Below are positions 5,285-27,769 of a stretch of DNA of 64,000 bases, one piece after another (positions within the stretch are counted from its first letter, which is position 1; the number at the start of each line of letters is the position of its first letter). Under the pieces are notes generated by a model that had not been told where the DNA came from, did no database searches, and worked only from the letters and a program-made list of their open reading frames with translations. The stretch is taken from NCBI GenBank assembly GCA_047605685.1, contig JASGFF010000001.1, forward strand, positions 26,940 to 90,939, written 5' to 3'. A program made the translations under genes and the position numbers. Source of the stretch: Microbacteriaceae bacterium. GTDB lineage: Bacteria; Actinomycetota; Actinomycetes; Actinomycetales; Microbacteriaceae.

Positions 5285-5289
5285 GGCGG

Positions 5290-7839: not shown

Positions 7840-7864
7840 GGTCGTCCCCGTCCGCGCCGTGCGA

Positions 7865-10606: not shown

Positions 10607-11875
10607 GTGCGCATGACGACCGTGCCCGAGCACCCGTATCTCGCCGACACCTTCGCCCGGCTGCTCGCGGCGCCGACGCGGTTCATGGCCCCGCCGGAGT
10701 GGTCGGAGCCGGGAAGCAGACGGGTGGACTTCTCCGCGATGTCCTTCGAGAGCCGCGCGGTGCACCTCGGGCACCATCCCGAGCAGCACAACGGCTCGGT
10801 GACGCTGCCCGTCTACCTGACGACGAGCTTCGAGCAGGTCGCCGAGCGCTCCTGGGACTACTCCCGCATCGCGAACCCGAGCCGTGCCGCACTGGAGGAA
10901 TGCCTCGCCGGCCTCGATCACGGCAGCTGTGCGACGGCGACGGCGTCCGGCATGGCGGCGACCACCGCGGCGGTGCTGACAGCCTGCCGCCCGGGTGACA
11001 CCGTCGTGCTCGGCGAGCGGACCTACGGCGGGGTGTGGGAGCTGTTCTCCGGGCTGCTCAGTGGCTGGGGGATCGAGACGGAGGTCATCGACCTGAGCGA
11101 TCCGGGTGCGCTGGAGGCGGGGTTCCCGGCCGGCACCAGGCTCGTCTGGGCCGAGACCCCGGCGAACCCCGACCTGCGCCTGGTCGACATCGCGGCCACC
11201 GCCGACGTGGCGCACCGCCACGGGGCGCTGCTCGGGGTCGACAGCACCATCGGCTCGCCCTACCTGCAGACCCCGCTCGACCTCGGCGCCGACATCGTCG
11301 TGCACTCGACGACGAAGTACCTGGCCGGCCACTCCGACGTCACCGGCGGCGTCGTGGTCACGAACGACGCGGAGCTGGACTTCGGCATCCGGCACACGGT
11401 CTCGGTCACCGGATCCTCGGCCTCGCCGATGGACAGCTGGCTGACCTTCCGCGGGGTCAAGACCCTCCCGGCCCGGATGGAGCGGATCTGCGCCTCCGCG
11501 CAGCGCATCGCCGAGGCGCTCGCCGAGGACCGGCGGGTGAGCGCCGTGCACTACCCCGGCGTCGCCACCGGAGCCCAGGCCGAGCTCGCCGCCCGCCAGA
11601 TGCACGGCGGCTACGGCGGGGTGCTCGCCATCGAGGTGCCGGGCGGCGGCGAGGCGGCACGGCGGGTCCTCGCGAACGTGCGGCTGTTCACCTCGGCCGT
11701 CTCGATGGGGGGCGTCGAGTCGCTCATCCAGCAGCCGGCGACGATGACCCACGTGAACACGAAGGGGACCGCGATCGAGATCCCCGAGGGGATGCTCCGC
11801 CTGTCCATCGGCCTCGAGGACCCGGCCGAGCTGCTCGCCGACCTGGGCCGGGCGATCGACGCCGCCGGCTCCTGA
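10607..11875 (+). CDS. Cys/Met-metabolism PLP-dependent enzyme (cystathionine gamma-synthase/lyase family)
   Basis: ORF 422 aa. STTKYLAGHSD with the PLP lysine. The true start may be the internal ATG at 10739 (MSFESRAVHLG). Confidence 0.85.
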   Translation: MRMTTVPEHPYLADTFARLLAAPTRFMAPPEWSEPGSRRVDFSAMSFESRAVHLGHHPEQHNGSVTLPVYLTTSFEQVAERSWDYSRIANPSRAALEECLAGLDHGSCATATASGMAATTAAVLTACRPGDTVVLGERTYGGVWELFSGLLSGWGIETEVIDLSDPGALEAGFPAGTRLVWAETPANPDLRLVDIAATADVAHRHGALLGVDSTIGSPYLQTPLDLGADIVVHSTTKYLAGHSDVTGGVVVTNDAELDFGIRHTVSVTGSSASPMDSWLTFRGVKTLPARMERICASAQRIAEALAEDRRVSAVHYPGVATGAQAELAARQMHGGYGGVLAIEVPGGGEAARRVLANVRLFTSAVSMGGVESLIQQPATMTHVNTKGTAIEIPEGMLRLSIGLEDPAELLADLGRAIDAAGS

Positions 11876-11913
11876 GCCGGCGGCGGGCCGGCGCGGCGAC
11901 CGCCCGACGCCGC

Positions 11914-13404
11914 TCACCGACGGGCGATCACGCGCTCTCCGTCGAGCGCCGCGGGATCGAGCACGCCCTCGCGCACCACGGAACGGCCGGCGACGAGCAG
12001 GTGCCGTACCCCGACGCTCGGGGCCGTGCTGAGCGTCGAGCCGCGCGGCCCGAACGCCGGGTCGAGCACGACCAGGTCGGCGTCCGCGCCCGCCCGCAGT
12101 CGGCCACGCCGCTCGAGCTCGGGGGCGACCTCGGCGAGGATCGAGGCCGGCAGCAGGCTCGCCTTGCGGAAGAACTCGACCGGCCCCGGGCCGGCCGGGC
12201 CGGTGAGCAGGCGCCACGCCCGCGCGTAGCACCCGCTCGAGCGCGGGTGCGCGCTCAGCCCCGGGGGCAACGGCCAGAGCTCGTCGGCGACCGGCAGACC
12301 GTCCGGTGGCTCGAACGGCATCGCGTCGCTGGCCAGGGCGACCTCGGGTGCGGCGAGGAGATCGTGCAGCACGGCCGCCTCCTCGGGGATCGACTCGTCG
12401 AGGAACGCGACGGTGCACAGCCGCGACGGGTCCGCGGAGCGCAACCGGGCGAGTTCGGCGGCATCGGCGACCGGCTCGGCGCTGCCGAGCAGCGTGATCC
12501 GCTGCGGAGCCAGTCCCTGGCGGTGCAGGGCGGCCGGGTCGAGGAAGGCGGCGCCGATCTGCGTGCAGCCGAAGCCGAAGGGGTACGCCTCGGTGCTGAT
12601 CCGCGCGCCGTCGGCGACCGCTCGACGCACCCGGGCGAGCACCGTCATGCCGTGGCGGTGGCTTGTGCTGTTCAGGTGGCACAGGTGGATGTGCGCCCCG
12701 GTGCCGAGTGCCGCCTCGACGAGCTCCTCGACCGCGTCGAGGAGGGTGGGCGGATGGTGCGGCTGCATCGACCGGGCGTGCACGAACAGCGGCACCCGCT
12801 GCTCGGCGGCCAGCGCCGCCACCGCGATCACCTCGTCGGTGCCGACCGCGGGCGCATAACCCAGGAGCATCCCGATGCCGAGGCCGCCCGCTCGCAGGTC
12901 CGCGCGCAGCAGCTCCACGATCCGGGCGATCTCGCCCGCGGTGGCGGGCCGCTGCCACCGCGGGCCGCGCTGTGCGGAGGAGAACATCTCCAGCGCGGTC
13001 GCGGCGCCCTCGGGATGCGCGGCGTCGCGCAGCGGCGCACCGTCGAGCACGTGCATCCGGGCCGCCACCCAGGAGCTGGAGAAGCCGAAGCGGATCGGCC
13101 GTCCGCGTGCCGCGTGACGCTCCCCGACGTCTGCGCTCGGCAGGGCGCCTTCTTCGAGCTCGAGCGCGCAGGTCACCCCGTCCAGCGCCTGCAGGCGCAG
13201 GCCGGCGAGCGACTGCGCGTGCGAGTGCAGGTCGATGAGGCCGGGCCCGACGACGCAGCCGCGCACGTCGATGCGCTCGGCCGCGGCCGGGATCGCACCG
13301 CCGATCGCGACGATGCGCCCGTCGTCGACGAGGACGTCGGTCTCGACGTCCAGGCCGGTCTCCGGATCGATCACCCGGCCGCCCAGCAGCGCGACGGCGG
13401 CCAT
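11914..13404 (-). CDS. N-acyl-D-amino-acid deacylase (D-aminoacylase) family amidohydrolase
   Basis: ORF 11914..13509 trimmed to the ATG at 13404. GPGLIDLHSHA metal-binding motif and family-typical length. ATGA overlap with the upstream gene. Confidence 0.85.
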   Translation of the reverse strand: MAAVALLGGRVIDPETGLDVETDVLVDDGRIVAIGGAIPAAAERIDVRGCVVGPGLIDLHSHAQSLAGLRLQALDGVTCALELEEGALPSADVGERHAARGRPIRFGFSSSWVAARMHVLDGAPLRDAAHPEGAATALEMFSSAQRGPRWQRPATAGEIARIVELLRADLRAGGLGIGMLLGYAPAVGTDEVIAVAALAAEQRVPLFVHARSMQPHHPPTLLDAVEELVEAALGTGAHIHLCHLNSTSHRHGMTVLARVRRAVADGARISTEAYPFGFGCTQIGAAFLDPAALHRQGLAPQRITLLGSAEPVADAAELARLRSADPSRLCTVAFLDESIPEEAAVLHDLLAAPEVALASDAMPFEPPDGLPVADELWPLPPGLSAHPRSSGCYARAWRLLTGPAGPGPVEFFRKASLLPASILAEVAPELERRGRLRAGADADLVVLDPAFGPRGSTLSTAPSVGVRHLLVAGRSVVREGVLDPAALDGERVIARR

Positions 13405-14639
13405 CAGAAATAGGTGCGCACGGCGTCGACGACACGGTAGTCGTCCGAGACCACCGGGATGAGCCGCCACCGGTCGAAGGCGGTGCACGGGTGCGAGACG
13501 CCGAAGCACAGCAGATCACCCACGGCGAGGTCGCTGTCCGCGGGGACATCGAGGTAGGCGTGCTGGTCGTTCAGGCCGCGCACGACGCCCCCGGCGGCAC
13601 GGATGCTGCCGCGCCGGCGCACCCCGAGCAGCGTCGGCAGGCCGCTGTCGTAGGGTGCGTCGCGGCGCCCGAAGCCCACGATGGCGAGGGTCGGCTCCGG
13701 CCGGGACAGCACGCGCGCCCACAGCTCGAGCGCCGGCAGCAGCGCAGGCCGTCCGGCGCGGCCGTCGAGCGGAGTGCTGCGGGCGTACAGCCCGTGGTCG
13801 TGGGCGAGGTAGCAGCCGCTGCGCAGCAGCACGCGCACCCCCGCGTGACCGGCGAACCGGGCGGCGACCAGGTGGAAGTGGCTGCTGCCGCCGAAGGAGG
13901 CGATGGCCGGCCCGCGCGCGATGAGCGACTCGGCGAGCATCGTCTCGAGCACCGTGGCAGCGACATCCAGGTACTCGGCGATGCGCTCCCGCTGCTCGGC
14001 CAGCTCGGCGCCGGGCATGACGCCCTCAAAGCCCTCGACGCCGGCGAGCCGGAGGCCCGGCGTCGCGGCGACCCGGCGGGCGATCCGCAGCGCGTCCTCG
14101 GCGCTGCGGGTGCCCGCCCTGCCGCCCGGGTAGCCCAGCTCGACGAGAATGCCCAGGCGCCGCCCCGATCCCGCGAACGCCTCGCCAAGCAGCTCGAGAC
14201 CGGCCGCCGAGTCGACGAGCGCGTAGGCCTCGACGCCGTCGTCGACCGCGCGGCGCAGCCAGCGCGCGTCGTGGGCGTCGCCCACCTCGTTGGCGAGCAC
14301 GATCCGCGTGGCGCCGTGCCGGATGAACAGGCGCGCCTGCGATACGGTCGCCACGGTGACCGCCCACGCGCCCGCGGCGCGCTGCCGCGCCCACAGCTGC
14401 GGGCTCATGTGGGTCTTGCCGTGTGGCGCGAGGTCGACGCCGGTGCGCCGGCAGTAGTCGGCCATCGTGGCGAGGTTGTGCTCGACGGCGGAGTCGCGCA
14501 GCACGAGCAGCGGCATGGAGAAGTCGCCGTCGAGCGCGCGCCAGCCCTGGCCGCCCACGGTGCCCACCGTCACGCCGGCGACGGCCGGGAAACCCTTGTC
14601 GCCCTCGTCGACGGGCTCGTTCAGCACGATTGCAGGCAT
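13404..14639 (-). CDS. DSD1-type PLP enzyme (alanine-racemase-N fold; D-serine dehydratase / D-threonine aldolase-like amino acid deaminase)
   Basis: ORF 411 aa. ..APHGKTHMSP.. PLP-lysine region and a C-terminal DQHAYL..CFGVSHPCTAFD segment. Confidence 0.8.
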   Translation of the reverse strand: MPAIVLNEPVDEGDKGFPAVAGVTVGTVGGQGWRALDGDFSMPLLVLRDSAVEHNLATMADYCRRTGVDLAPHGKTHMSPQLWARQRAAGAWAVTVATVSQARLFIRHGATRIVLANEVGDAHDARWLRRAVDDGVEAYALVDSAAGLELLGEAFAGSGRRLGILVELGYPGGRAGTRSAEDALRIARRVAATPGLRLAGVEGFEGVMPGAELAEQRERIAEYLDVAATVLETMLAESLIARGPAIASFGGSSHFHLVAARFAGHAGVRVLLRSGCYLAHDHGLYARSTPLDGRAGRPALLPALELWARVLSRPEPTLAIVGFGRRDAPYDSGLPTLLGVRRRGSIRAAGGVVRGLNDQHAYLDVPADSDLAVGDLLCFGVSHPCTAFDRWRLIPVVSDDYRVVDAVRTYF

Positions 14640-14886
14640 GGCCGCACTCCCTGGATGTTGACGTCGGCATCTGAGCGTGGGCGGATTCGTGGCGCGCGAC
14701 GACCCCGCTCGACCCCGGCCAGGTTACGAGCGCCGAGGGCCGCGCGGGCTGGTCCGATCCGACGACGATCGTGACCGGGCTTCGTGCGCTCGGACGAACC
14801 CGCGACGGCGCGAAGCCCCGCAGACTGGCTTGACAGGCGTCGGCCGCCAGCAACCGCCCTCGCCCTCAACCGCCCGAGGAGCAGTC

Positions 14887-15732
14887 ATGCGCGTCTACAT
14901 CTCCATCGACATGGAAGGCGTCGCCGGCGTCGCGACGCTCGATCAGGTGGGTCGGGGCGGTCACGGCTATCCGCGGGCGCAGGAGCTGATGACGGCCGAG
15001 GCGAACGCGGCGATCGCCGGGGCCTTCGACGGCGGCGCAGACTCGGTCGTCGTCAACGACAGCCACGGCACGATGGACAACCTCATCCACGAGCAGCTCG
15101 ACCCGCGCGCCCGGCTGGTGTTCGGCTCGCCGAAGGCCGAGTGCATGGCCGAGGGACTCTCCGCCGACATGGATGCGGCGCTGTTCATCGGCTACCACGC
15201 GCCGGCCGGTGTGCGCGGGGTGCTCGCGCACACGTTCTCGGCCCACTTCACCGAGGTCCGCATCAACGGCGAGCGGGCGTCGGAGACGAGCGTCAACGCG
15301 CTGCTCGCGGCCGCGCACGGCGTGCCGGTGGCGATGGTCAGCGGCGACGACGTCATCTGCGGCATCGCCGCCGAGCTGCTCGAGGACGTGGTCACCGTGC
15401 CGGTGAAGGTCGCGCACGGCTGGTCGGCGGCCGACTCGCTGCCGCCGGGCGCCGCCCGCGAGGCCATCGCCGCCGGCGCCCGGGAGGCGGTGCGGCGCGC
15501 CGCCGGACTGCGAGCGCTGCACCTGCCGACGGCGCTCGAGATCGAGATCGACATGCCCAACCAGATCGCCGCCGAGCTCGCCGCGATGATGCCGGGTGTC
15601 ACGCGACGCGACGACAGGACCGTCGTCGCCGCGGTGGCCGATCCCGCGACCGCGATCGGGGTCATCACGGTCGGCTACGAGCTCGCCAACGCCTCGCTGC
15701 AGAAGCTCGCCGTGCTCCTGAACCGCCGCTGA
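14887..15732 (+). CDS. dppA: D-aminopeptidase DppA (peptidase M55)
   Basis: In-frame ATG within ORF 14677..15732. MRVYISIDMEGVAGV..VVNDSHG.. is a hallmark N-terminus. GGAG RBS upstream. Confidence 0.9.
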   Translation: MRVYISIDMEGVAGVATLDQVGRGGHGYPRAQELMTAEANAAIAGAFDGGADSVVVNDSHGTMDNLIHEQLDPRARLVFGSPKAECMAEGLSADMDAALFIGYHAPAGVRGVLAHTFSAHFTEVRINGERASETSVNALLAAAHGVPVAMVSGDDVICGIAAELLEDVVTVPVKVAHGWSAADSLPPGAAREAIAAGAREAVRRAAGLRALHLPTALEIEIDMPNQIAAELAAMMPGVTRRDDRTVVAAVADPATAIGVITVGYELANASLQKLAVLLNRR

Positions 15733-15901: not shown

Positions 15902-17434
15902 ATGCATCGCACCAGGATCGCCGCGGCCGCCGCGGCGCTCGGCATGGTCGTCGCGGTCGTCTCCGGCTGCGCCGGCACGACCTCGAGCGACACCGCCACG
16001 GCCCGCACCACCCTCGTCGTCGCGCGAGCCGCCGACGTCACCACCCTGAACGCCGACTCCGTCTCGAGCAGCCAGGAGGGCTGGGAGACGCTCGAGCTCA
16101 TCGCCGACCCGCTGTTCACCATCGACGCCGACGGCACGATCGAGCCCCGGGTCGCCGAGTCGTACAGCTTCGACACGACGAACACCGTGCTCACGATCAC
16201 GCTGCGCAGCGACGCGGTGTTCTCCAACGGCGACCCCGTGACGAGCGCAGACGTGGCCTTTACGATCGAGAACGCGCAGAAGGGCGAGCTGCAGGGCGCG
16301 CTCTACGCCGACATCCAGGCGATCACGACCCCGGACGACCAGACGGTCGTCATCCAGTACTCGGAGGCATCGTCGGCCGCCGTGACCAACCTGGCCAGTT
16401 ACGCGGTGTCGATCATCCCGGCCGACTTCGCCGGCGAGGACGAGGACGCCTTCTGGCAGGACCCGATCACCGTCGGCGCCTGGACGATCGCAAGCTGGGA
16501 CCAGGGCAGCCAGCTCACCCTCGAGCGCAACGACTCCTACTACGGCACCAAGCCCACGCTGCAGGAGATCCAGTTCACCACGGTGCCCGACGAGAACACC
16601 CGGCTGCTGCAACTGCAGAACGGCACCGTCGACCTCGCCGACGGCATCACCTCCGCCTCGGTGGACCAGATCGCCTCGGATGGCTCGCTGCAGACCGTCG
16701 AGCTGCCCGCAGCGCAGGACATCTTCTTCACGGTGAACACGACATCCGGTCCGATGTCCGACGAGCACGCCCGCCGCGCCGTCTCGCTGGCCATCGACCG
16801 CTCGAGCATCGTCGCGGGCGCCCTCGGCGGGCACGGCAGCGTCGGCGGATCGTTCGTGGTATCGACGGCCGTCGGCGGCTACTCCCCCGAGTTCGGCTCC
16901 GAGTACGACGCCGACGAGGCGAGCGCCGAGCTCGCCGAGAGCGCCTACCCGGACGGCTTCGACCTCGACCTGATGTACAGCAGCTCCATCTCGGGAGCGG
17001 ATGCCGCGATGCAGATCGTCCAGCAAGACCTCGCCGCGGTCGGCATCACCGCGACGCTGTCGGCACTCGACGACGACGCGATCTCCGCGAAGATGGACTC
17101 CGGTGACTGGGACACCTACCTGGCGAACATCATCGCGGACACCGATGCCGGCGCCGTGCTGCAGTACTACAGCGCGACGAACGGGTTCTACTGCGGCGAC
17201 ACCTCGATGATCGCCACGGTCGAGGGCTATTACGAGCAGGCGAACGCCGACTTCGACGGCCAGGATGCCCGCAATGCGATCTTCGCCCAGGCGCTGGAGG
17301 CCATCGCGGACAGCGCCGTGCAGATCGCCCTGTACGACACGGTGCGCATCTGGGGTGCCTCGGCCGAGGTGCAGGATCTGACCGCGCTGAACACCACCGG
17401 CGCGATCGACTTCTCCACGGTCACGATCGACTGA
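15902..17434 (+). CDS. peptide/nickel ABC transporter substrate-binding lipoprotein (family 5)
   Basis: ORF 15887..17434. Lipoprotein signal ..VVAVVSGC. The ATG at 15902 is preferred over the upstream GTG. Confidence 0.9.
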   Translation: MHRTRIAAAAAALGMVVAVVSGCAGTTSSDTATARTTLVVARAADVTTLNADSVSSSQEGWETLELIADPLFTIDADGTIEPRVAESYSFDTTNTVLTITLRSDAVFSNGDPVTSADVAFTIENAQKGELQGALYADIQAITTPDDQTVVIQYSEASSAAVTNLASYAVSIIPADFAGEDEDAFWQDPITVGAWTIASWDQGSQLTLERNDSYYGTKPTLQEIQFTTVPDENTRLLQLQNGTVDLADGITSASVDQIASDGSLQTVELPAAQDIFFTVNTTSGPMSDEHARRAVSLAIDRSSIVAGALGGHGSVGGSFVVSTAVGGYSPEFGSEYDADEASAELAESAYPDGFDLDLMYSSSISGADAAMQIVQQDLAAVGITATLSALDDDAISAKMDSGDWDTYLANIIADTDAGAVLQYYSATNGFYCGDTSMIATVEGYYEQANADFDGQDARNAIFAQALEAIADSAVQIALYDTVRIWGASAEVQDLTALNTTGAIDFSTVTID

Positions 17435-17445
17435 ACGCACGGCAC

Positions 17446-17472
17446 GGGGCGGGCGGATGATCCGCCCGCCCC
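17446..17472 (+). other. intercistronic GC hairpin (12-bp arms ggggcgggcgga / tccgcccgcccc)
   Basis: Perfect inverted repeat 12 nt after the SBP stop and 35 nt before the permease start. Confidence 0.6.
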
Positions 17473-17506
17473 GACGACCACCACATCCGCAATCGAGGGG
17501 AATCGC

Positions 17507-20342: not shown

Positions 20343-21118
20343 GCACGCTGCTGGAGGTACGGGATGTCACGGTGCGCTTCCACCGCGGCCGCACGCGGGT
20401 GACCGCCGTCGACGCCGTCGACCTCGAGCTGCGACGGGGCGAGATCCTCGGCCTCGTCGGCGAGTCCGGCTGCGGCAAGTCCACGCTCGCACGGGCCATC
20501 GCGGGGGCGCAGCCGGTCGATGCCGGCACGATCCGACTGGACGGCGAGCCGCTCGGCGGCCGTCGCAGCCCCCGACAGCGCCGCGCGGTGCAGATGGTGT
20601 TCCAGGATCCGTACGCGGCGCTGAACCCGGCGCTGCGGATCGGCCCGATGCTCGTGGAACTGCTCCGCGTGCACCGGCTCGCACCGCGCGGTCGGGAGCA
20701 GCACCGCGCCGCCGAGCTGCTCGCCGCCGTCGGCATCGGGCCGGCGTACCTCACCGCCTGGCCGCACTCCCTCTCGGGCGGACAACGGCAGCGGATCAAC
20801 ATCGCCCGCGCCCTCGCCCTCGAACCGGAGCTGCTCATCGCCGACGAGGCGGTCTCCGCCCTGGACGCCTCCGTGCAGGCCAGCGTGGTGAACCTGCTGC
20901 TGGAGCTGCGCGAGCGACTGGGGCTGAGCATCCTGTTCATCAGTCACAACCTCGCCGTGGTGCGGCAGATCGCGGACCGCATCGCGGTGATGCACGCCGG
21001 ACGCATCGTCGAGACCGGTGAGGCCGACCTCGTGTTCGCCGAGCCCGGGCACGCATACACCCGTGAGCTGCTCGCCGCGATTCCGCGGCTGCGCACCGAT
21101 CGAGAGGAGCACCGATGA
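20339..21118 (+). CDS. peptide ABC transporter ATP-binding protein (DppF/OppF-like)
   Basis: ORF 259 aa. GESGCGKST, LSGGQRQRI, ADEAVSALD. Confidence 0.9.
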   Translation: MSTLLEVRDVTVRFHRGRTRVTAVDAVDLELRRGEILGLVGESGCGKSTLARAIAGAQPVDAGTIRLDGEPLGGRRSPRQRRAVQMVFQDPYAALNPALRIGPMLVELLRVHRLAPRGREQHRAAELLAAVGIGPAYLTAWPHSLSGGQRQRINIARALALEPELLIADEAVSALDASVQASVVNLLLELRERLGLSILFISHNLAVVRQIADRIAVMHAGRIVETGEADLVFAEPGHAYTRELLAAIPRLRTDREEHR

Positions 21119-22458
21119 CCGAGGAGGAGCTGCAGACGCTGCTCGACGAGGCGGCCGCCCGGCACGGCGTTCCGGGCGCCGCCCTGGGCCTCATGGACCC
21201 GGCCGGCGTCCGGGCCGTGGTGACCGGCATCACGAACGCCCGCACCGGGGCGCCGGTGTTGCGCTCGACGATGTTCCAGATCGGCTCCATCTCGAAGGTG
21301 TGGACCGCCACGCTGGCGATGCAGCTCGTCGACGAGGGGCGGCTCGACCTGGACACCCCGGTGCGTCGCTGGCTGCCCGAGCTCGGCGACAGCCACGCCG
21401 GCGCCGCCACGATGCGGATGCTGCTGGAGCACACCAGCGGGCTCGAGTGCGATCTGTTCATGGACACCGGGCGCGGCGACGACGCGCTCGAGCGCTGGGT
21501 CGCCCGGATGGTCGACGAGCCGGCGCTGCATCCGCTCGGCGAGACCTGGACGTACTGCAACACCGGCTTCATGCTCGCCGGCCGGGTGATCGAGGTGATC
21601 GAGGGCGCCGACTGGGACACCGTGCTGCGCCGCCGGCTCATCGAACCCCTGGCGCTGCCCGCGACCGCGACCCTGCCGGAGCACGTGCTGCTGCACTCCG
21701 CGGCGCTCGGGCATGTGCACGAGCCCGGCGCCGCGTTCCGGGCCGCCGACGACTGGTTCTTCCCCCGCTGCGTCGGCCCGGCCGGGTCGATCGTGGCCCG
21801 GATCGACGACCTGCTCGCCTTCACCCGGATGCACCTGGCCGACGGCGTCGCGGAGGACGGCACCCGCGTGCTCAGCCGGGCGGGCGCGCAGCTCATGCGC
21901 GAGCAGGGGGTTGCGCTGCCGGCGCTGCTCTCCCCCGGGGTGCGGGGCTGGGGGCTGGGCTGGGGGCTGTGGCGCTACGGCGACGTCCCGGTGGTCGCCC
22001 ACACCGGCGGCACGATCGGCCAGTACGCCTTCCTGGACGCCTTCCCCGAGCGGGGCGCGGCCCTCGCGCTGCTCACCAACGGGGGCGACGCCGACGCGCT
22101 GGCCGCCGAGCTGCGCCGCACCATCCTGCCCGAGTGGCTCGGCGTCACCCCGCCGCCGCCGCTCGAGCCCATCGACGCCCCGCTCGGCGAGGTGCCCGTC
22201 GGCCGCTACCGGCGGTACGGGTCGAGCGTCGAGCTGCGCCGCGGCGACTCCGGCTACGAGCTGGTGCTCGTCTCCGGGCCGCTCGACACCGGTGCCGGCG
22301 AACAGGTGCAGGCGCTGCCGCTGCGCGCAGCCGAGTCGGGCTTCGTCGCCCTCGCCGAGGGCGGCCGGCATTCGGTGCCGGTGCGCGCCCTGACGCTGAG
22401 CGATGGACGGCGCGCGGTGACAGCGGGGACGCGCCTGTACGTCGAGGAGCGGGCGTGA
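21115..22458 (+). CDS. penicillin-recognising serine peptidase (beta-lactamase fold; R61 DD-peptidase / D-aminopeptidase-like)
   Basis: ORF 447 aa. SISK (SxxK), YCN (YxN) and HTG motifs in the canonical order. Confidence 0.8.
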   Translation: MTEEELQTLLDEAAARHGVPGAALGLMDPAGVRAVVTGITNARTGAPVLRSTMFQIGSISKVWTATLAMQLVDEGRLDLDTPVRRWLPELGDSHAGAATMRMLLEHTSGLECDLFMDTGRGDDALERWVARMVDEPALHPLGETWTYCNTGFMLAGRVIEVIEGADWDTVLRRRLIEPLALPATATLPEHVLLHSAALGHVHEPGAAFRAADDWFFPRCVGPAGSIVARIDDLLAFTRMHLADGVAEDGTRVLSRAGAQLMREQGVALPALLSPGVRGWGLGWGLWRYGDVPVVAHTGGTIGQYAFLDAFPERGAALALLTNGGDADALAAELRRTILPEWLGVTPPPPLEPIDAPLGEVPVGRYRRYGSSVELRRGDSGYELVLVSGPLDTGAGEQVQALPLRAAESGFVALAEGGRHSVPVRALTLSDGRRAVTAGTRLYVEERA

Positions 22459-23585
22459 GCGGGACGGGGCCGGTCGCCGGCATGCTCGACGACCTCGGCG
22501 CCCTCGTGTGCGCCGAGTCGCCCACGGCGGAGCCCGCTGCGGTGAACGTCGCGGCGGAGGTGCTCGCCGGGATCGGCGAGCGACTGCTGTCGCTGCCGGC
22601 CGAGCGCGTCGTGCTGGAGGGACGGGTGCACCTGCGCTGGCGGCTCGGTGAGGGCGCCCGGCGCGTCCTGATGCTCGGCCACGTCGACACCGTCTGGCCG
22701 GTGGGCACGCTCGAGCGGATCCCCTGGCGGGTGGACTCCGGCCGCGCGAGGGGGCCGGGCTGCTTCGACATGAAGGCGGGTCTCGTGCAGGCGCTGCACG
22801 CGGTCGCCTCGCTGCCCGACCCGGACGGCGTCACCGTGCTCGTCACCGGCGACGAGGAGCTCGGCGCACCGACGTCCCGCGAGCTGATCCGCGCCGAGGC
22901 GGGCCGGCACCGGGACACGCTCGTGTTCGAGCCGAGCGCGGACGGCGGCGCGTTCAAGGTCGCCCGGAGCGGCGTGTCGCTGTACGAGCTGATCGTGCAC
23001 GGACGGGCGGCGCACGCCGGCCTCGAACCCGCCGCGGGCGTCAACGCCGCCGTCGGCGTCGCCGAGCTGGTGCTCGCGCTCGAGCGCATCGGCGCGGGCG
23101 AGGCGGACGCGACCGTCACGCCGACGCTGATGTCCGCCGGCACCAGTGCGAACACCGTGCCGGCGCAGGCGCGGCTGAGCGTCGACGTGCGCGCCGGTAC
23201 CGTCGCCGACCAGCAGCGGCTGGATGCGGTCATCCGACGGCTCGCGCCGACGAACCCGGCGATGCGGGTGGAGGTGCTCGACGGCGTCCGGATCCCGCCG
23301 CTCGAGGAGGCCTCCTGCGCCGAGCTGGTCGCGATCGCGCAGCGCGAGGCCTCGGTCCTGGGCATCGAGCGCCCCGGCGCGACGCGCGTCGGCGGCGGCT
23401 CCGATGGGAACACCGCGGCGTCCGCGGGATCGCGGGTGCTCGACGGTCTCGGCGCCGTCGGCGGGGGGGCGCACGCGCCGGAGGAGCACGTGCTGGTCGC
23501 GACGATGCCCGAGCGGACGCTGCTGGCCGCGGCGGTGCTGGCCCGACTGCTGGAACAGGCACCGCTGCCGGAGCGGGACCGATGA
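22455..23585 (+). CDS. M20-family metallopeptidase (carboxypeptidase G2 / N-acyl-L-amino-acid hydrolase-like)
   Basis: Last 376 codons of ORF 21018..23585, from a GTG overlapping the upstream stop. GHVDTV, GCFDMK and TGDEELG metal and catalytic motifs. Confidence 0.85.
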   Translation: MSGTGPVAGMLDDLGALVCAESPTAEPAAVNVAAEVLAGIGERLLSLPAERVVLEGRVHLRWRLGEGARRVLMLGHVDTVWPVGTLERIPWRVDSGRARGPGCFDMKAGLVQALHAVASLPDPDGVTVLVTGDEELGAPTSRELIRAEAGRHRDTLVFEPSADGGAFKVARSGVSLYELIVHGRAAHAGLEPAAGVNAAVGVAELVLALERIGAGEADATVTPTLMSAGTSANTVPAQARLSVDVRAGTVADQQRLDAVIRRLAPTNPAMRVEVLDGVRIPPLEEASCAELVAIAQREASVLGIERPGATRVGGGSDGNTAASAGSRVLDGLGAVGGGAHAPEEHVLVATMPERTLLAAAVLARLLEQAPLPERDR

Positions 23586-24412
23586 GCGCGGCATGGCGCA
23601 GCGCCGAGCGCGCCGCGGACGCGGCCCACGTGACCGTGCGGATGCTGCGCGACGTGGACGAGCTGCTGGCTGCCGAGCGTGTGCAGCAGCAGATCTGGCG
23701 GGTGCCCTCGGACCGGGCGCTGCCGGTGACGGCCTCGGTGATGCGGGCGCTGCAGCACTCGGGCAACTACTGCGCCGGGGTCTGGGACGCCGACGCCGAG
23801 GAGCTGATCGGGGTGGCGATCGGCTTCTTCGGTGCGCCCGGCTACGCGGCGCTGCACTCGCACGTCGCCGGTGTGCTCCCCGCGCGGGTGCACGCCGGCG
23901 CCGGCCGGGCGCTCAAGCTGCACGAGCGCGCCTGGGCGCTGGAGCGCGGAATCACCCAGATGACCTGGACCTATGACCCGCTCATCGGGCGCAACGCCTG
24001 GTTCAACCTCGGCAAGCTGGGTGCCGTGGCGGAGGACTACCTGGTTGACTTCTACGGTCCGATGGCGGATGAGGTCAACCTCGGCGACACCACCGATCGC
24101 CTGCTGGTGCGCTGGCGGCTCGACGACGAGGCCACCGAGTCGCTCGCGGCCGGAGGGCCGGTGCGGCTGCCCGCGGAGCCGGAGGGCATCCTGCTCGCCG
24201 AGGCGGCCGGCCGGCCGCAGCCGCAGCCGCCCGACCCGTGGGCGCGCACGCTCGGGGTCGCCGTTCCCGACTCCCCCGAGCTGCGAGACCTCGGCCTTAC
24301 CCGTCTCTGGCGCGAGGCGGTGCGGGCGGCGCTCGCCCCGCGGCTCGGGCACGGATGGCACATCGCCGGCTTCCGCCGCGGCACCGGCTATGTGATCAGC
24401 ACGGACCGATGA
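23582..24412 (+). CDS. GNAT-fold acyltransferase-like protein
   Basis: ORF 276 aa. The VLPARVHAGAGRALKL segment resembles GNAT motif A (R/Q-x-x-G-x-G/A). ATGA overlap with the M20 gene. Confidence 0.6.
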   Translation: MSAAWRSAERAADAAHVTVRMLRDVDELLAAERVQQQIWRVPSDRALPVTASVMRALQHSGNYCAGVWDADAEELIGVAIGFFGAPGYAALHSHVAGVLPARVHAGAGRALKLHERAWALERGITQMTWTYDPLIGRNAWFNLGKLGAVAEDYLVDFYGPMADEVNLGDTTDRLLVRWRLDDEATESLAAGGPVRLPAEPEGILLAEAAGRPQPQPPDPWARTLGVAVPDSPELRDLGLTRLWREAVRAALAPRLGHGWHIAGFRRGTGYVISTDR

Positions 24413-24429
24413 TCAGGACAGGAGCACCG

Positions 24430-25536
24430 ATGAGGATCGACGCCTTTGAGCTGCGCAGCCTGCGCATGCCGCTGAAAGCCCCGTTCACGACATCGTTCGG
24501 CACCCAGACCGAGCGCGAGATCGTGCTGGTGCGGGCGCTGGGGCCGGACGCCGAGGGCTGGGGGGAGTGCGTCACCATGGCCGCGCCGCTCTACTCGGCC
24601 GAGTACACGACCGGCGCCCGGGAGGTGATGCTCCGCTGGCTCGCCCCCGCGCTGCTGGAGGCTCCCGCTCTGACGGCGGCGATCGTCGGCGAGCTCCTCG
24701 CGCCGATCGTGGGCCACCGGATGGCCAAGGCGGCGCTGGAGATGGCGGTGCTCGACGCCGAGCTGCGCGCCGCGGGCCGCTCCTTCGCGAGCGCGATCGG
24801 CGCGACCGCGGCGGCCGTGCCCTCGGGGGTGTCGGTGGGCATCCAGCCCTCGATCGAGGAGCTGCTCCGGGTGGTCGGGGGCTTCATCGACGAGGGCTAT
24901 GTGCGCATCAAGATCAAGATCAAACCGGGCTGGGATGTCGAGCCCGTGCGCGCGATCCGCTCGGCGTTCGGCGACGAGCTGCCGCTGCAGGTCGACGCCA
25001 ACTCCGCCTACACGCTCGCCCAGGCGGCGGTGCTGCGCCAGCTCGACGACTTCGGCCTGCTGCTGATCGAGCAGCCGCTGTACGAGGACGACCTGCGCCT
25101 GCACGCGACGCTCGCCGGCATGCTGCGCACGCCGGTGTGCCTGGACGAGTCGATCGTCTCGGCGCGTGCCGCCGCCGACGCGATCGCGCTCGGGGCGGCA
25201 TCCGTGATCAACGTCAAGCCCGGTCGGGTCGGCGGCTATCTGGAGGCGGTGCGCATCCACGATCTGGCCCGCGCGAACGGTGTGGCGGTGTGGTGCGGCG
25301 GCATGCTCGAGACCGGGGTGGGGCGCGCCGCGAACGCGGCGCTCGCCGCGCTGCCCGGCTTCACACTGCCCGGCGACATCTCCGCATCGGACCGGTTCTA
25401 CGAGGAGGACCTCACCGAGCCGATCCTGCTCGAGGACGGCCGCATCCGGGTGCCGGATGGTGCCGGCTTCGGGCGTACACCCATCCCGGAGATCCTCGCG
25501 CGGTATACCGTCGACACCGTGACGGTCCGCCGCTGA
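24430..25536 (+). CDS. enolase-superfamily o-succinylbenzoate synthase / N-succinylamino-acid racemase (MenC/NSAR family)
   Basis: In-frame ATG (RBS aggacaggag) within ORF 24238..25536. KIKIKPG (KxK), DANSAY, IEQP, LDES and NVKPGRVGG motifs. An alternative ATG at 24409 overlaps the upstream stop. Confidence 0.85.
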   Translation: MRIDAFELRSLRMPLKAPFTTSFGTQTEREIVLVRALGPDAEGWGECVTMAAPLYSAEYTTGAREVMLRWLAPALLEAPALTAAIVGELLAPIVGHRMAKAALEMAVLDAELRAAGRSFASAIGATAAAVPSGVSVGIQPSIEELLRVVGGFIDEGYVRIKIKIKPGWDVEPVRAIRSAFGDELPLQVDANSAYTLAQAAVLRQLDDFGLLLIEQPLYEDDLRLHATLAGMLRTPVCLDESIVSARAAADAIALGAASVINVKPGRVGGYLEAVRIHDLARANGVAVWCGGMLETGVGRAANAALAALPGFTLPGDISASDRFYEEDLTEPILLEDGRIRVPDGAGFGRTPIPEILARYTVDTVTVRR

Positions 25537-25617
25537 GCATCGCCGCCGAGCCCGGATTCCGGCGAGAGCCCGCGCCCCGGCGAGAGCCGTATCCCGGCGA
25601 GAGTCAGAGAGGTTCGC

Positions 25618-27222
25618 ATGGCCGAGTCGCACCCCCGCTCCACCCTGGGACGGCTGCTGGACGATCTCGGCCTGACCCTGGTGGATGTCGCGCTGGGGCG
25701 CGTCGATCCGAGCCGTGAGGTCTCCGCCGTCGTCATCCACGACCCGCTCGACCCGCCGCTGTGGCGACCGGGCGACCTGGCTCTCGGCGTGGGGCTCGGC
25801 GCCGCCGACGAGATCGCGGAGGTGGTCCGCGATCTCGACGCGATCGGCGGCGTGGCGGTGGTGCTGCGCTCGCCGGTGCCGGTCGACGCGCAGCTGCGCC
25901 GCGCGGTCGAGGAGAGCGGCGTGGTGCTCCTGGAGCTGACGCACGGCGCGAGCTGGTCGCAGGCGGCCAGCATGCTCACCGCCTCGCTCGGACTGGCCGA
26001 CACCCAGCTGGCCGCGGCGATCGAGAGCGACGACCGCGGCGACCTGTTCGCCCTCGCCAACGCCGTCGCCGACCTGCTGCACGCCCCCGTCACCGTCGAG
26101 GACCTGAACTCGCAGGTCCTGGCCTTCTCCGCCGACCAGGGCGAGGCGGATGACTACCGCAAGAACGCCGTGCTCGGGCGTCGTGTTCCGGATGACATCA
26201 CCGACGCGCTGAGGTCCACCGGCCTGTTCAACCGGATCTATGCCGCCCACGGCGCCGTGCTGTTCTCCCCCGCGGACAGCGGCATGGACCCGGCGCTGCT
26301 GCCGCGGGCTGTCATCGCGATCCGCGCCGGCGACGAGGTGCTCGGCACCATCTGGGCGGTGCTCCGCGACGGGGAGCTGACCGCCGAGCGTGCCGCAGCC
26401 CTTGAGGAGGCCACGCGTCCCGCCGCGATGCAGTTGCTGCGTGCCCGGATGTCGGCGCGCGGGCAGGACCGGGCGCGCACCGTGCTGGTGAACACGCTCA
26501 TCCAGGGCGGTGCTGCCGCCCGGGATGCGGCATCCCGCACCGGACGGTTCACCGGGCGCTCCTGCGTGCTCGCCGTCGGCCCGGTTCTCTCGAACGATGC
26601 GGTGCACTCGGCCTCGGAGCTGCAGCGGCTGGCGAGCTCGTTCACCCTGCACATGGCGACGATGCATCCCCAGGCCGTCGCCGCGACGATCGGCGCGACC
26701 GTCTACGGGGTGATCCCGGTCGGGCGCTCCGACCGCACTGCCGTCATCGACTCGGCCGACGAGTTCGTGCGCCGGGTGAGCCGGCGCACGCCCGTGGTCG
26801 TGGGCATCGGCGCCGCCGTCGAGGACCCCACGGCGCTGGCCACCTCCCGCGAGGACGCGGACCGCGCGCTGCGGGTGCTGCGCAGCGGCGCCCCGCGGCC
26901 GGGCGTTGCCCATATCGACGACGTGCAGGTGCAGTGGCTGCTGCTGCAGTTGGGCGACCTCATCGCGGCGGAGCGACGCGACGTGACCGGGCCGATCGCC
27001 CGCTTGCTCGCCTACGACGCGGGTGCCGGCGGTGAGCTGCTGGCGACGCTTCGAGCCTGGCTGGACGCGTTCGGCGACGTTGCGACCGCCAGTCAGCGTC
27101 TCTTCGTGCACGCGAACACACTGCGCTACCGGCTGCGCCGCATCGCGGAGATCGCGGAGGTCGACCTCGATGATCCCGAGGTCCGTTTCGGGATGATGCT
27201 GCAGCTGCGCGTCTTCGGCTGA
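25618..27222 (+). CDS. PucR/CdaR-family transcriptional regulator
   Basis: ORF 534 aa. C-terminal ..LFVHANTLRYRLRRIAEI.. HTH. Confidence 0.85.
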   Translation: MAESHPRSTLGRLLDDLGLTLVDVALGRVDPSREVSAVVIHDPLDPPLWRPGDLALGVGLGAADEIAEVVRDLDAIGGVAVVLRSPVPVDAQLRRAVEESGVVLLELTHGASWSQAASMLTASLGLADTQLAAAIESDDRGDLFALANAVADLLHAPVTVEDLNSQVLAFSADQGEADDYRKNAVLGRRVPDDITDALRSTGLFNRIYAAHGAVLFSPADSGMDPALLPRAVIAIRAGDEVLGTIWAVLRDGELTAERAAALEEATRPAAMQLLRARMSARGQDRARTVLVNTLIQGGAAARDAASRTGRFTGRSCVLAVGPVLSNDAVHSASELQRLASSFTLHMATMHPQAVAATIGATVYGVIPVGRSDRTAVIDSADEFVRRVSRRTPVVVGIGAAVEDPTALATSREDADRALRVLRSGAPRPGVAHIDDVQVQWLLLQLGDLIAAERRDVTGPIARLLAYDAGAGGELLATLRAWLDAFGDVATASQRLFVHANTLRYRLRRIAEIAEVDLDDPEVRFGMMLQLRVFG

Positions 27223-27723: not shown

Positions 27724-27769
27724 ATACGTGTCGACGGATGGACACGGCAGACCGTTGTCAAGAAATGCG

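What the first reader, a model, noticed from the sequence alone, without database searches (positions are those of the whole stretch)
10607..27222. 17-kb block concentrating D-stereospecific enzyme families around a peptide importer
Several contiguous genes belong to families whose characterised members act on D-configured amino acids or peptides.
- D-aminoacylase-type amidohydrolase (11914-13404)
- DSD1 / D-threonine-aldolase-type PLP enzyme (13404-14639)
- DppA D-aminopeptidase (14887-15732)
- R61-like SxxK/YxN/HTG serine peptidase (21115-22458)
- an M20-GNAT-NSAR triad (22455-25536)

These genes surround a five-gene Dpp/Opp-type importer (15902-21118) and a Cys/Met-family PLP enzyme. PucR-family regulators flank both ends (9208-10401 and 25618-27222). 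From dppA to the racemase gene, eight of the nine junctions are ATGA/GTGA overlaps, implying one long translationally coupled operon.

I infer a dedicated system for importing and fully mineralising D-amino-acid-containing peptides, such as peptidoglycan stem peptides or peptide-antibiotic debris. I do not recognise this combination as a described operon.
Basis: partly seen in the sequence, partly recalled or inferred. Interest (0 to 1): 0.65.

Follow-up and report, generated by a model that had tools for sequence, protein, structure and literature searches.

The report
D-amino-acid peptide import and salvage locus
This actinobacterial locus couples a small-peptide importer and D-type peptidases to the known three-enzyme route that turns D-amino acids into L-amino acids; the core is conserved in many actinomycetes, is untested by experiment, and extends a known pathway rather than being a new kind of system.

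Summary
The genes are real and the family calls hold, with four corrections.
- Only 7 of 9 junctions overlap, probably 6.
- The 'GNAT' is recognisable only by fold.
- The 'D-aminoacylase' is a remote relative with a changed metal ligand.
- The S12 hydrolase's closest solved relative is an esterase.

The core is S12 hydrolase, M20, GNAT, NSAR racemase and PucR. It has reciprocal-best-hit orthologues in the same order in dozens of actinomycete genera, usually behind an SBP5-type ABC importer and an S9 peptidase.

Here S9 is missing. The importer is a different paralogue, of the kind that travels with DppA (M55) D-aminopeptidase elsewhere. A separate MenC in the genome frees the racemase from menaquinone synthesis.

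The amidohydrolase recurs next to the triad in other lineages. The DSD1-like gene, the Cys/Met PLP gene and the left PucR gene do not.

Best reading: import of small D-residue peptides or amino-acid conjugates, cytoplasmic cleavage, and stereoinversion to L-amino acids. This is salvage, not 'full mineralisation'.

The triad is published (Sakai 2006). I found no paper on the extended cluster. This scan already reported the same conserved cluster on other DNA (e1-2488351, e1-1480178, e1-4747251). No expression data could be obtained.

The parts
9208..10401 (-). PucR-family regulator (left). Membership in the system is doubtful.
   Evidence: HTH_30 at 67 bits and GGDEF_2. Only two short HTH-region matches (E~3e-4) and no orthologue in 80 related loci.
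10607..11875 (+). Cys/Met-metabolism PLP enzyme (cystathionine gamma-synthase / gamma-lyase type). Probably a neighbour, not a part of the system.
   Evidence: PF01053 at 374 bits. Best PDB hit is cystathionine gamma-lyase/synthase 8SF4 at 349 bits. The genome holds several paralogues. It lies near the triad in only 2 of 80 loci, both Amycolatopsis. No riboswitch was found upstream.
11914..13404 (-). Amidohydrolase of the PRK09061 subfamily, related to N-acyl-D-amino-acid deacylases.
   Evidence: NF006560 at 480 bits, above its cut-off of 340. A profile search gives 3GIP N-acyl-D-Glu deacylase at E=1.5e-30 and 1M7J D-aminoacylase at 4e-28. H60, H62, H209, H243 and D360 are invariant, and Glu84 sits at the Cys-ligand position. 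Orthologues lie next to the triad in 8 loci and upstream of the importer in 3 loci of the 80. They lie within 5 kb of NSAR in 3 of 6 sampled genomes that have both.
13404..14639 (-). DSD1 / D-threonine-aldolase-type fold-type-III PLP enzyme, translationally coupled to the amidohydrolase (TGATG, 1-nt overlap).
   Evidence: D-ser_dehydrat and Ala_racemase_N domains. 3GWQ 'D-serine deaminase' at 292 bits and D-threonine aldolase 7DIB at 115 bits; the PHGKT and SHPC motifs are aligned. The overlap is shown. It was not linked to NSAR, M55 or the amidohydrolase in any of 300 sampled genomes.
14887..15732 (+). DppA, an M55 D-aminopeptidase, cytoplasmic.
   Evidence: PF04951 at 310 bits. B. subtilis DppA 1HI9 at 143 bits, with Zn ligands D8, E10, H60, H104 and E133 conserved. 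No signal peptide. It is the only M55 gene found among the family-level genomes searched, 0 of 9 in the class sample.
15902..17434 (+). Family-5 solute-binding lipoprotein of the importer.
   Evidence: SBP_bac_5 at 257 bits. Lipobox VSGC at residues 20-23. Nearest solved relatives are AgaA (agropinic acid, 147 bits), AapF, GsiB/YliB and NikA.
17445..17473 (+). 13-bp G+C hairpin between the SBP gene and the first permease gene. It has no U tract.
   Evidence: Folding gives -37 kcal/mol, z = -2.9. The arms were found as an inverted repeat.
17507..19269 (+). Two permease genes (17507-18448 and 18445-19269).
   Evidence: BPD_transp_1 with BPD_transp_1_N or OppC_N. ATGA overlap between them. They are (near-)reciprocal best hits with the DppA-linked importers of L107 and L121, not with the canonical cluster's importer.
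19266..21118 (+). Two ATPase genes (19266-20342 and 20339-21118).
   Evidence: ABC_tran and oligo_HPY. ATGA overlaps on both sides.
21115..22458 (+). Cytoplasmic S12 (beta-lactamase-fold) serine hydrolase, a candidate D-stereospecific peptidase or amidase.
   Evidence: PF00144 at 192 bits. S58xxK, Y147xN and H296TG motifs, and no signal peptide. PDB hits: IS11 199 bits, SurE 126, alkaline D-peptidase 94, R61 82, D-amino-acid amidase 76. Orthologous to the S12 gene of the conserved cluster by reciprocal best hit.
22455..23585 (+). M20 metallohydrolase (carboxypeptidase-G2-like), the predicted N-succinyl-L-amino-acid desuccinylase.
   Evidence: Peptidase_M20 and M20_dimer. CPG2 1CG2 at 125 bits. 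Adjacent to the GNAT gene in 66 of 80 loci. Reciprocal best hit.
23582..24412 (+). GNAT-fold acyltransferase with an extra C-terminal domain, the predicted D-amino-acid N-succinyltransferase.
   Evidence: No Pfam or NCBIfam hit. 594 homologues, many named GNAT by their sources. AF2 model with pLDDT 89. Top Foldseek matches are amino-acid N-acetyltransferases YncA and PA4866 (phosphinothricin-acetyltransferase type), with TM about 0.75 on the target.
24430..25536 (+). N-succinylamino-acid racemase (NSAR/OSBS subfamily). An alternative start lies at 24409.
   Evidence: 1SJA Amycolatopsis NAAAR at 511 bits. K168/K170, D196, E221, D246, K270 and R273 are present. A separate MenC lies at G000:C1:4345-5316, 470 bits against a cut-off of 288. 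AGGAG precedes the start at 24430.
25559..25603 (+). Three exact direct copies of CCGGCGAGAG upstream of pucR2. Possible operator, untested.
25618..27222 (+). PucR-family regulator (right), the conserved regulator of the cluster.
   Evidence: HTH_30 at 76 bits and GGDEF_2. It follows NSAR in 58 of 80 loci. Reciprocal best hit.

Best explanation
The locus is an uptake-and-salvage system for small compounds that carry D-amino acids, such as di- or tripeptides or amino-acid conjugates.

Proposed steps:
1. A lipoprotein SBP and a Dpp-type ABC importer bring the compound into the cell.
2. Cytoplasmic hydrolases free the amino acids. These are DppA (an M55 D-aminopeptidase) and an S12 serine hydrolase. 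The divergently transcribed D-aminoacylase-like amidohydrolase may contribute.
3. The GNAT N-acylates the free D-amino acids, probably with succinyl-CoA.
4. NSAR racemises the N-succinyl-D-amino acid.
5. The M20 hydrolase removes the succinyl group from the L-form only. The D-to-L conversion is therefore irreversible.
6. The right-hand PucR regulator controls the operon.

Shown here: gene families, catalytic residues, tight coupling from permease 1 to the racemase, orthology and conserved synteny of S12-M20-GNAT-NSAR-PucR, and a separate MenC.

Inferred: substrates, stereospecificities, the acyl donor and the regulation.

The DSD1-like enzyme (coupled to the amidohydrolase) may dispose of D-Ser or D-Thr-type residues, but its link is seen only in this genome. 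The Cys/Met PLP gene and the left PucR gene are probably neighbours only.

Evolutionarily, the locus looks like a fusion of two recurrent modules: (DppA + its importer) and (S12-M20-GNAT-NSAR-PucR). The usual importer and S9 peptidase of the second module have been replaced.
For: - Family and residue evidence.
- Coupling: seven 4-nt overlaps from perm1 to nsar, and no terminator-like site on the + strand between 14887 and 25536.
- Conserved set: anchored on the GNAT gene, 80 actinomycete loci show nsar in 76, m20 in 66, pucR in 58, S12 in 49 and ABC genes in 45-49. The commonest order is SBP-perm-perm-ATP-ATP-S9-S12-M20-GNAT-NSAR-PucR. The set stays together even when the order is shuffled, as in Amycolatopsis.
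- Orthology: reciprocal best hits for S12, M20, GNAT, NSAR and PucR2.
- M55 recurrence: M55 is embedded with an importer, NSAR and M20 in two further families, G235 and G295. From genome sizes I estimate about 0.1 such co-locations by chance.
- Amidohydrolase recurrence: within 5 kb of NSAR in 3 of 6 genomes with both, each from a different family, and in 11 of the 80 loci.
- DppA-linked importers similar to this one also carry an isoaspartyl peptidase and an LD-carboxypeptidase, which are abnormal-peptide salvage enzymes.
- The hydrolases lack signal peptides and the SBP has a lipobox.
- MenC lies elsewhere in the genome.
- The triad is the published D-to-L pathway (bioRxiv 10.1101/2022.03.03.481873; PMC12006748).
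Against:
- The importer is not orthologous to that of the conserved cluster.
- The SBP's nearest solved relatives bind agropinic acid, glutathione or nickel chelates rather than ordinary peptides.
- The closest solved relative of the S12 enzyme is a carboxylesterase (PMC9972953).
- The amidohydrolase lacks the Cys ligand of D-aminoacylases.
- dppA is separated from the SBP gene by 169 nt containing a TTGAC-like box, so it may be a separate transcript.
- DSD1, cgs and pucR1 show no conserved linkage.
- The same-genus genome and 24 family relatives lack the full cluster.
Confidence: 0.55

Rival explanations
1. The block is a mosaic of neighbouring but functionally independent units. These would be pucR1-cgs (sulfur amino acids), dsd1-amidohydrolase, a general DppA/Dpp peptide importer, and the D-to-L conversion operon. 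On this view the 'D-stereospecific' theme is partly a coincidence of annotation names.
For: - DSD1, cgs and pucR1 show no conserved linkage to the rest.
- The importer is a different paralogue from the one in the conserved cluster.
- A 169-nt gap follows dppA.
- There is no synteny in the same-genus genome.
- 15 of 20 sampled M55 genes have no adjacent importer or triad.
Against: - The second ATPase gene and the S12 gene overlap by ATGA, and all genes from perm1 to nsar are coupled.
- An SBP5-type importer accompanies the S12-M20-GNAT-NSAR set in about half of 80 loci, and does so even when the gene order differs.
- M55 and the amidohydrolase each recur beside NSAR in independent families.
Confidence: 0.2
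2. The system catabolises N-acylated amino acids or N-blocked peptides of either configuration, rather than D-residue peptides. NSAR and the two deacylases (M20 L-specific, amidohydrolase D-specific) would process imported N-acyl amino acids. The GNAT would only recapture stray D-amino acids.
For: - NSAR acts on N-acyl or N-succinyl amino acids (PDB names; PMC12006748).
- The amidohydrolase family is closest to N-acyl-D-amino-acid deacylases.
- The canonical cluster carries an S9 peptidase with a PD40 propeller, the family that includes acylaminoacyl peptidases.
- The SBP's relatives bind amino-acid conjugates.
Against: - The GNAT is the most constant partner of NSAR, present with it in 76 of 80 loci. 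That argues that free D-amino acids are the pathway's input.
- This genome has no S9 orthologue; the best hit is 29-30% identical and lies on another contig.
- DppA and S12 need free N-termini in their characterised relatives (established knowledge of B. subtilis DppA and O. anthropi DAP; not tested here).
Confidence: 0.12
3. The imported compound is not a peptide. It could be an opine-like or ester-containing amino-acid conjugate or a beta-lactam or depsipeptide fragment, and the S12 enzyme would act as an esterase.
For: - The best solved relative of the S12 enzyme is esterase IS11, at 199 bits (PMC9972953).
- The SBP is nearest to AgaA, the agropinic-acid binder, at 147 bits.
Against: - All other solved relatives of the S12 enzyme above 75 bits act on D-residue peptides or amides: SurE, alkaline D-peptidase, Streptomyces S12 peptidase, R61 and D-amino-acid amidase (PMC12903863).
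- M55, S9 and M20 are peptidase families.
- The downstream triad needs a free amino acid.
Confidence: 0.08
4. The enolase-superfamily gene is the o-succinylbenzoate synthase of menaquinone synthesis, and the cluster is unrelated to D-amino acids.
For: TIGR01928 (menC_lowGC_arch) scores 298 bits, above its cut-off. NSAR/OSBS enzymes are promiscuous (PMC12006748).
Against: - A dedicated actinobacterial MenC scores 470 bits elsewhere on the contig.
- No men genes lie in the cluster.
- The gene is about two-thirds identical to Amycolatopsis NSAR over the full length (511 bits) and keeps R266.
- GNAT and M20 partners are conserved.
Confidence: 0.01

Closest known systems
[quoted passage not shown] 2006, Biochemistry 45:4455, as summarised in bioRxiv 10.1101/2022.03.03.481873 and PMC12006748)
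   Same: The same three families are adjacent and coupled. NSAR has the full catalytic set plus R266. The gene lies outside any men operon and a separate MenC is present.
   Different: Here, and in many actinomycetes, the triad is fused to an ABC importer, one or more peptidases and a PucR regulator. Orthology of this GNAT and of the CPG2-like M20 to the Geobacillus enzymes was not tested.
Conserved actinomycete cluster SBP-perm-perm-ATP-ATP-S9-S12-M20-GNAT-NSAR-PucR
   Same: S12, M20, GNAT, NSAR and PucR are orthologous and in the same order and orientation, directly behind the second ATPase gene of an SBP5-type importer.
   Different: There is no S9 peptidase. The importer is a different paralogue. 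An M55 DppA gene lies upstream, and a divergent DSD1-amidohydrolase pair is present.
Bacillus subtilis dpp (dciA) operon: dppA D-aminopeptidase followed by dppBCDE (established knowledge; DppA structure 1HI9)
   Same: An M55 D-aminopeptidase gene leads a five-component dipeptide-type ABC importer on the same strand. The Zn ligands are conserved.
   Different: The gene order of the importer differs, with the SBP gene first. The operon continues into S12 and the D-to-L triad. The regulator is of the PucR type.
S12 D-stereospecific peptidases and amidases: O. anthropi D-aminopeptidase, B. cereus alkaline D-peptidase, Streptomyces R61 DD-peptidase, and SurE-type PBP cyclases
   Same: Beta-lactamase fold with SxxK, YxN and HTG motifs.
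   Different: The protein is cytoplasmic, with no signal peptide. It has a roughly 100-residue C-terminal extension. Its best solved match is the esterase IS11. Its stereospecificity is unknown.
N-acyl-D-amino-acid deacylases of the amidohydrolase superfamily (A. faecalis D-aminoacylase 1M7J; Bordetella Bb3285 N-acyl-D-Glu deacylase 3GIP)
   Same: These are the best solved relatives by profile search. HxH, two His and Asp are conserved.
   Different: Identity is only about 25%. The Cys metal ligand is replaced by an invariant Glu. The protein belongs to a separate NCBIfam subfamily (PRK09061) with no characterised member.

Membership tests
[quoted passage not shown] | An NSAR/OSBS-subfamily enolase enzyme with KxK, the Asp/Glu/Asp metal ligands, the second catalytic Lys and the second-shell Arg (AmyNSAR R266). 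| tested here: met
   K168/K170, D196, E221, D246, K270 and R273 are present. 511 bits to 1SJA.
[quoted passage not shown] | The racemase is not needed for menaquinone synthesis: it lies outside a men operon and a separate OSBS exists. | tested here: met
   NF002782 MenC at G000:C1:4345-5316 scores 470 bits against a cut-off of 288. No men genes lie in the cluster.
[quoted passage not shown] | An adjacent GNAT-superfamily acyltransferase. | tested here: met
   AF2 model with pLDDT 89. Foldseek probability is 1.0 to GNAT amino-acid N-acetyltransferases. The gene is adjacent to NSAR in 76 of 80 loci.
[quoted passage not shown] | The GNAT uses succinyl-CoA and is specific for D-amino acids; it is orthologous to the Geobacillus enzyme. 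| not testable with these tools
   This needs an enzyme assay.
[quoted passage not shown] | An adjacent M20 hydrolase acting as an L-specific desuccinylase. | tested here: inconclusive
   The M20 catalytic and dimerisation domains are present and the gene is adjacent. The protein is CPG2-like. Activity and stereospecificity are untested.
Conserved actinomycete importer-S9-S12-M20-GNAT-NSAR-PucR cluster | Orthologous S12, M20, GNAT, NSAR and PucR genes in this order. | tested here: met
   Reciprocal best hits with wide margins against five reference loci. The order is shown.
Conserved actinomycete importer-S9-S12-M20-GNAT-NSAR-PucR cluster | An S9 (PD40 propeller + prolyl-oligopeptidase) gene between the ATPase and S12 genes. 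| tested here: not met
   ATPase 2 overlaps S12 directly. The best S9-like hit in the genome is 29-30% identical and lies on contig C28.
Conserved actinomycete importer-S9-S12-M20-GNAT-NSAR-PucR cluster | An importer orthologous to the cluster's importer. | tested here: not met
   The cluster's SBP, permeases and ATPase 1 best-hit other transporters of this genome, on C11 and C45. The window's importer pairs instead with the DppA-linked importers L107 and L121.
M55 D-aminopeptidase DppA | Full-length M55 domain with the Zn ligands of B. subtilis DppA (D8, E10, H60, H104, E133). | tested here: met
   PF04951 at 310 bits over profile positions 1-262 of 264. All five ligands align. NF058634 scores 214 bits, below its equivalog cut-off of 430.
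S12 D-stereospecific peptidase (R61 / DAP / ADP type) | The SxxK, YxN and (H/K)(T/S)G motifs. | tested here: met
   S58ISK, Y147CN and H296TG.
S12 D-stereospecific peptidase (R61 / DAP / ADP type) | Preference for D-configured residues. | not testable with these tools
   The nearest solved relative is an esterase (IS11). The next ones are D-specific (PMC12903863).
R61-type DD-carboxypeptidase specifically | A secreted, extracytoplasmic enzyme acting on peptidoglycan stem peptides. | tested here: not met
   There is no signal peptide; the N-terminus reads MTEEELQTLLDEAAARHG. R61 scores only 82 bits.
N-acyl-D-amino-acid deacylase (D-aminoacylase) | Metal ligands HxH, Cys, His, His and the catalytic Asp. 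| tested here: not met
   H60, H62, H209, H243 and D360 are present and invariant, but the Cys position holds an invariant Glu84. I therefore describe the protein as D-aminoacylase-like, not as a member.
DSD1 / D-threonine aldolase fold-type-III PLP enzymes | An N-terminal alanine-racemase-like barrel with the PLP lysine (PHxKT), plus a C-terminal D-ser_dehydrat domain with the HxC metal site. | tested here: met
   PF01168 and PF14031. APHGKTH and SHPC align with 3GWQ. The roles of these motifs are taken from established knowledge of chicken and yeast DSD.

The most novel reading that the evidence does not exclude
The NSAR triad may be the terminal stage of a modular, widely distributed actinobacterial system for scavenging D-residue peptides or amino-acid conjugates, for example from peptidoglycan or non-ribosomal peptides. 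Its importer and peptidase front ends would be exchangeable.

This genome would then show a rare fusion:
- a DppA-linked importer replaces the usual importer and S9 module;
- a D-aminoacylase-like enzyme and a DSD1-type enzyme are recruited, giving a locus that can handle N-terminal, C-terminal and beta-hydroxy D-residues.
Probability: 0.4. Interest if true: 0.6.

Novelty: new variant of a known kind. Interest (0 to 1): 0.45.

Why it matters
N-succinylamino-acid racemases have been studied for decades as models of enzyme promiscuity and as industrial catalysts. Their natural role in actinomycetes is inferred only from a three-gene context.

A conserved link to an importer and to D-type peptidases suggests a concrete physiological source of D-amino acids, and it is directly testable.

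It would also add a route by which soil actinobacteria recycle D-amino acids from cell walls and peptide antibiotics, through stereoinversion rather than oxidation.

This window adds evidence that the front end is modular: the importer and peptidases have been swapped while the triad is kept.

Tried and rejected
- Amidohydrolase structure: the AF2 model built from a 9-sequence alignment was poor (pLDDT 52.5), so I ran no fold search. A profile search of PDB sequences was used instead.
- Promoter scan: no sigma-70-type hits, which is uninformative for a 73% G+C actinobacterium. Two terminator-like sites were found, both on the minus strand.
- Shared operator search: I looked for shared motifs among the six intergenic regions (plus the stretch after pucR2). 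Only low-complexity GC-rich 9-mers were shared. The CCGGCGAGAG triplet upstream of pucR2 is local and is not enriched elsewhere. Related loci show a different conserved stretch upstream of pucR, which I did not analyse further.
- Riboswitch search: Rfam at E<=1 over 9000-28000 found nothing relevant.
- Synteny with close relatives: the same-genus genome G001 and 24 family genomes have only a divergent GNAT-NSAR pair.
- DSD1 linkage: none was found.
- Literature: I found no paper describing the extended cluster. Odokonyero 2018 (PMC7187728), which analyses NSAR genome contexts, is not held, so prior description there cannot be excluded.

Full report
**Observation**

Pfam and NCBIfam confirm the families:
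- PucR regulators at both ends.
- A Cys/Met-metabolism PLP enzyme.
- An Amidohydro_3 protein of subfamily NF006560.
- A fold-type-III PLP enzyme with the D-ser_dehydrat domain.
- An M55 DppA.
- A five-gene SBP5-type ABC importer.
- A beta-lactamase-fold (S12) hydrolase.
- An M20 hydrolase.
- An NSAR/OSBS enolase.

Four details need correction.
1. Seven of the nine junctions from dppA to the racemase are 4-nt overlaps, not eight. dppA-sbp is a 169-nt gap and sbp-perm1 a 72-nt gap. The racemase probably starts at 24430, behind an AGGAG, where homology to Amycolatopsis NAAAR begins. That leaves six overlaps.
2. The 'GNAT' has no profile hit at all.
3. The 'D-aminoacylase' is remote.
4. R61 is not the closest relative of the S12 enzyme.

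**The individual proteins**

*Racemase.* It scores 511 bits against Amycolatopsis N-acylamino-acid racemase 1SJA. It keeps K168/K170, D196, E221, D246 and K270, plus R273. R273 is the equivalent of R266, the NSAR specificity determinant (PMC12006748). The genome has a separate actinobacterial MenC at C1:4345-5316, scoring 470 bits against a cut-off of 288. By the criterion used in the NSAR literature, the cluster gene's biological role should therefore be racemisation.

*GNAT.* It has 594 homologues at 40-50% identity, many named GNAT by their sources. A confident model (pLDDT 89) matches amino-acid N-acetyltransferases such as YncA, PA4866 (phosphinothricin-acetyltransferase type) and FeeM over its first ~180 residues. 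A further C-terminal domain follows.

*M20.* It is carboxypeptidase-G2-like.

*DppA.* It scores 143 bits against B. subtilis DppA, and all five zinc ligands are conserved.

*S12 enzyme.* It has SxxK, YxN and HTG motifs and no signal peptide. Its solved relatives, in order, are:
- carboxylesterase IS11, 199 bits;
- SurE, a cyclase that recognises C-terminal D-residues, 126 bits;
- alkaline D-peptidase, 94 bits;
- a Streptomyces S12 peptidase, 89.5 bits;
- R61, 82 bits;
- D-amino-acid amidase, 76 bits.
These come, with context from PMC12903863 and PMC9972953.

*Amidohydrolase.* As a profile it is closest to N-acyl-D-Glu deacylase 3GIP (E=1.5e-30) and D-aminoacylase 1M7J. It keeps HxH, two His and an Asp, but has an invariant Glu84 where those enzymes have the Cys ligand.

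*DSD1-like enzyme.* It scores 292 bits against 3GWQ and has the PHGKT and SHPC motifs. It overlaps the amidohydrolase start by one base, TGATG.

*SBP.* It has a lipobox. It is nearest to binders of agropinic acid, glutathione and nickel chelates, so its ligand may be an amino-acid conjugate rather than a plain peptide.

**Comparative genomics**

I anchored a genome-collection scan on the GNAT gene. In 80 actinomycete loci, NSAR is present in 76, M20 in 66, the PucR gene in 58, S12 in 49 and the ABC genes in 45-49.

After I added queries taken from relatives, the canonical order emerged: SBP-perm-perm-ATP-ATP-S9-S12-M20-GNAT-NSAR-PucR. It occurs in Prauserella, Actinophytocola, Kribbella, Lentzea, Nocardioides, Jiangella, Streptomyces, a Microbacterium and others. 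In Amycolatopsis the same set is present in a different order, with the PRK09061-type amidohydrolase directly upstream of M20.

Reciprocal best hits show that the window's S12, M20, GNAT, NSAR and PucR2 are orthologues of the cluster genes. The window's SBP, permeases and ATPase 1 are not. The cluster's importer genes best-hit other transporters of this genome, and no S9 orthologue exists here.

The window's importer is instead closest to importers that sit next to M55 DppA genes in two other families (L107 and L121). One of these also carries an isoaspartyl peptidase and an LD-carboxypeptidase.

**Linkage of the peripheral genes**

I sampled 300 genomes of the class.
- M55 occurs in 66 of 301 genomes and NSAR-like genes in 57 (both counts include G000). 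They are co-located in two genomes from two different families, in both cases embedded with an importer and M20 (L099 and L100). From genome sizes I estimate about 0.1 such co-locations by chance.
- The amidohydrolase occurs in 17 genomes. It lies within 5 kb of NSAR in 3 of the 6 that have both, each from a different family.
- The DSD1-like gene occurs in 70 genomes but is never within 50 kb of NSAR, M55 or the amidohydrolase.
- The Cys/Met PLP gene is near the triad in only two Amycolatopsis loci and has paralogues in this genome.
- PucR1 has no counterpart in the related loci.
- Within the organism's own family, 24 genomes show at most a divergent GNAT-NSAR pair. The same-genus genome has no synteny.

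**Interpretation**

The most economical reading is a salvage route:
1. Import a small compound that carries a D-residue.
2. Hydrolyse it in the cytoplasm with DppA and S12, and perhaps the D-aminoacylase-like enzyme for C-terminal or N-acyl D-residues.
3. Stereoinvert the released D-amino acids through the GNAT, NSAR and M20 steps of the pathway first shown in Geobacillus kaustophilus (Sakai 2006, as cited).

PucR2 is the conserved regulator. The locus looks like a fusion of two recurrent modules. That module exchange is itself evidence that an SBP5-type importer and D-type peptidases belong functionally with the triad.

None of the substrate or stereochemical claims is shown. The esterase-like affinity of S12, the opine- and glutathione-like affinity of the SBP, and the changed ligand of the amidohydrolase are real caveats. 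'Full mineralisation' is not what the chemistry suggests.

**Regulatory features**

No intrinsic terminator-like site lies on the plus strand between dppA and the racemase. A 13-bp G+C hairpin without a U tract follows the SBP gene. This is consistent with differential stability of the SBP segment. Three exact CCGGCGAGAG repeats fill the nsar-pucR2 spacer. No Rfam element is present.

**Novelty**

The triad is published, and its operon context in Amycolatopsis has been used to annotate NSAR (PMC12006748). I found no paper describing the importer-peptidase extension, but one key paper was not available.

This scan has already reported the same conserved cluster on other DNA, with follow-up (e1-2488351, e1-1480178, e1-4747251). 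My synteny analysis was done before I read those notes, and it agrees with them.

What is particular to this window:
- the replacement of the importer and the S9 gene by a DppA-linked importer;
- the divergent DSD1-amidohydrolase pair;
- the absence of the full cluster, in those searched, from the rest of the organism's family.

I rate it a new variant of a known kind, of moderate interest.

Noticed in passing
window 25559-25603: Three exact direct copies of CCGGCGAGAG, spaced 18 and 17 nt apart, fill the 81-nt spacer between the racemase stop and the pucR2 start. The motif is not enriched elsewhere in the window. It could be an operator or autoregulatory site.
   Followed up: partly
L003, L009, L044, L045, L050, L067 and others, nsar-pucR spacer: Many related loci share a conserved stretch upstream of pucR of the form GGACGAAC..TAGGCT..N..CTAG(N)TTCGG(G/A)AGGTGCT. 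It may be a promoter or operator plus RBS. The window's spacer lacks it except for the AGGTTCG just before the start codon.
   Followed up: no
L011 5479-8838: In Microbacterium sp. RD1 the S9 peptidase and the S12 hydrolase lie in one uninterrupted 1119-codon frame. They are either a fusion protein or two genes without an intervening stop in that frame.
   Followed up: no
L107 (G096:C4) 3584-14759: A DppA-linked importer is followed by an isoaspartyl peptidase (Asparaginase_2), DppA, short-chain dehydrogenases and an LD-carboxypeptidase (S66). This looks like a separate 'abnormal peptide' salvage cluster, and its importer is the closest relative of the window's importer.
   Followed up: partly
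L017, L033, L038 (Nocardioides) 1-7500: A variant cluster has a second S12 gene in front of the SBP gene, no S9 gene, and the PRK09061-type amidohydrolase divergent upstream. This layout is close to the window's divergent amidohydrolase arrangement.
   Followed up: partly
window 14826-14836 and 15812-15820: TTGACA and TTGACT boxes lie about 55 nt upstream of dppA and about 85 nt upstream of the SBP gene. They suggest separate promoters for dppA and for the importer operon.
   Followed up: no
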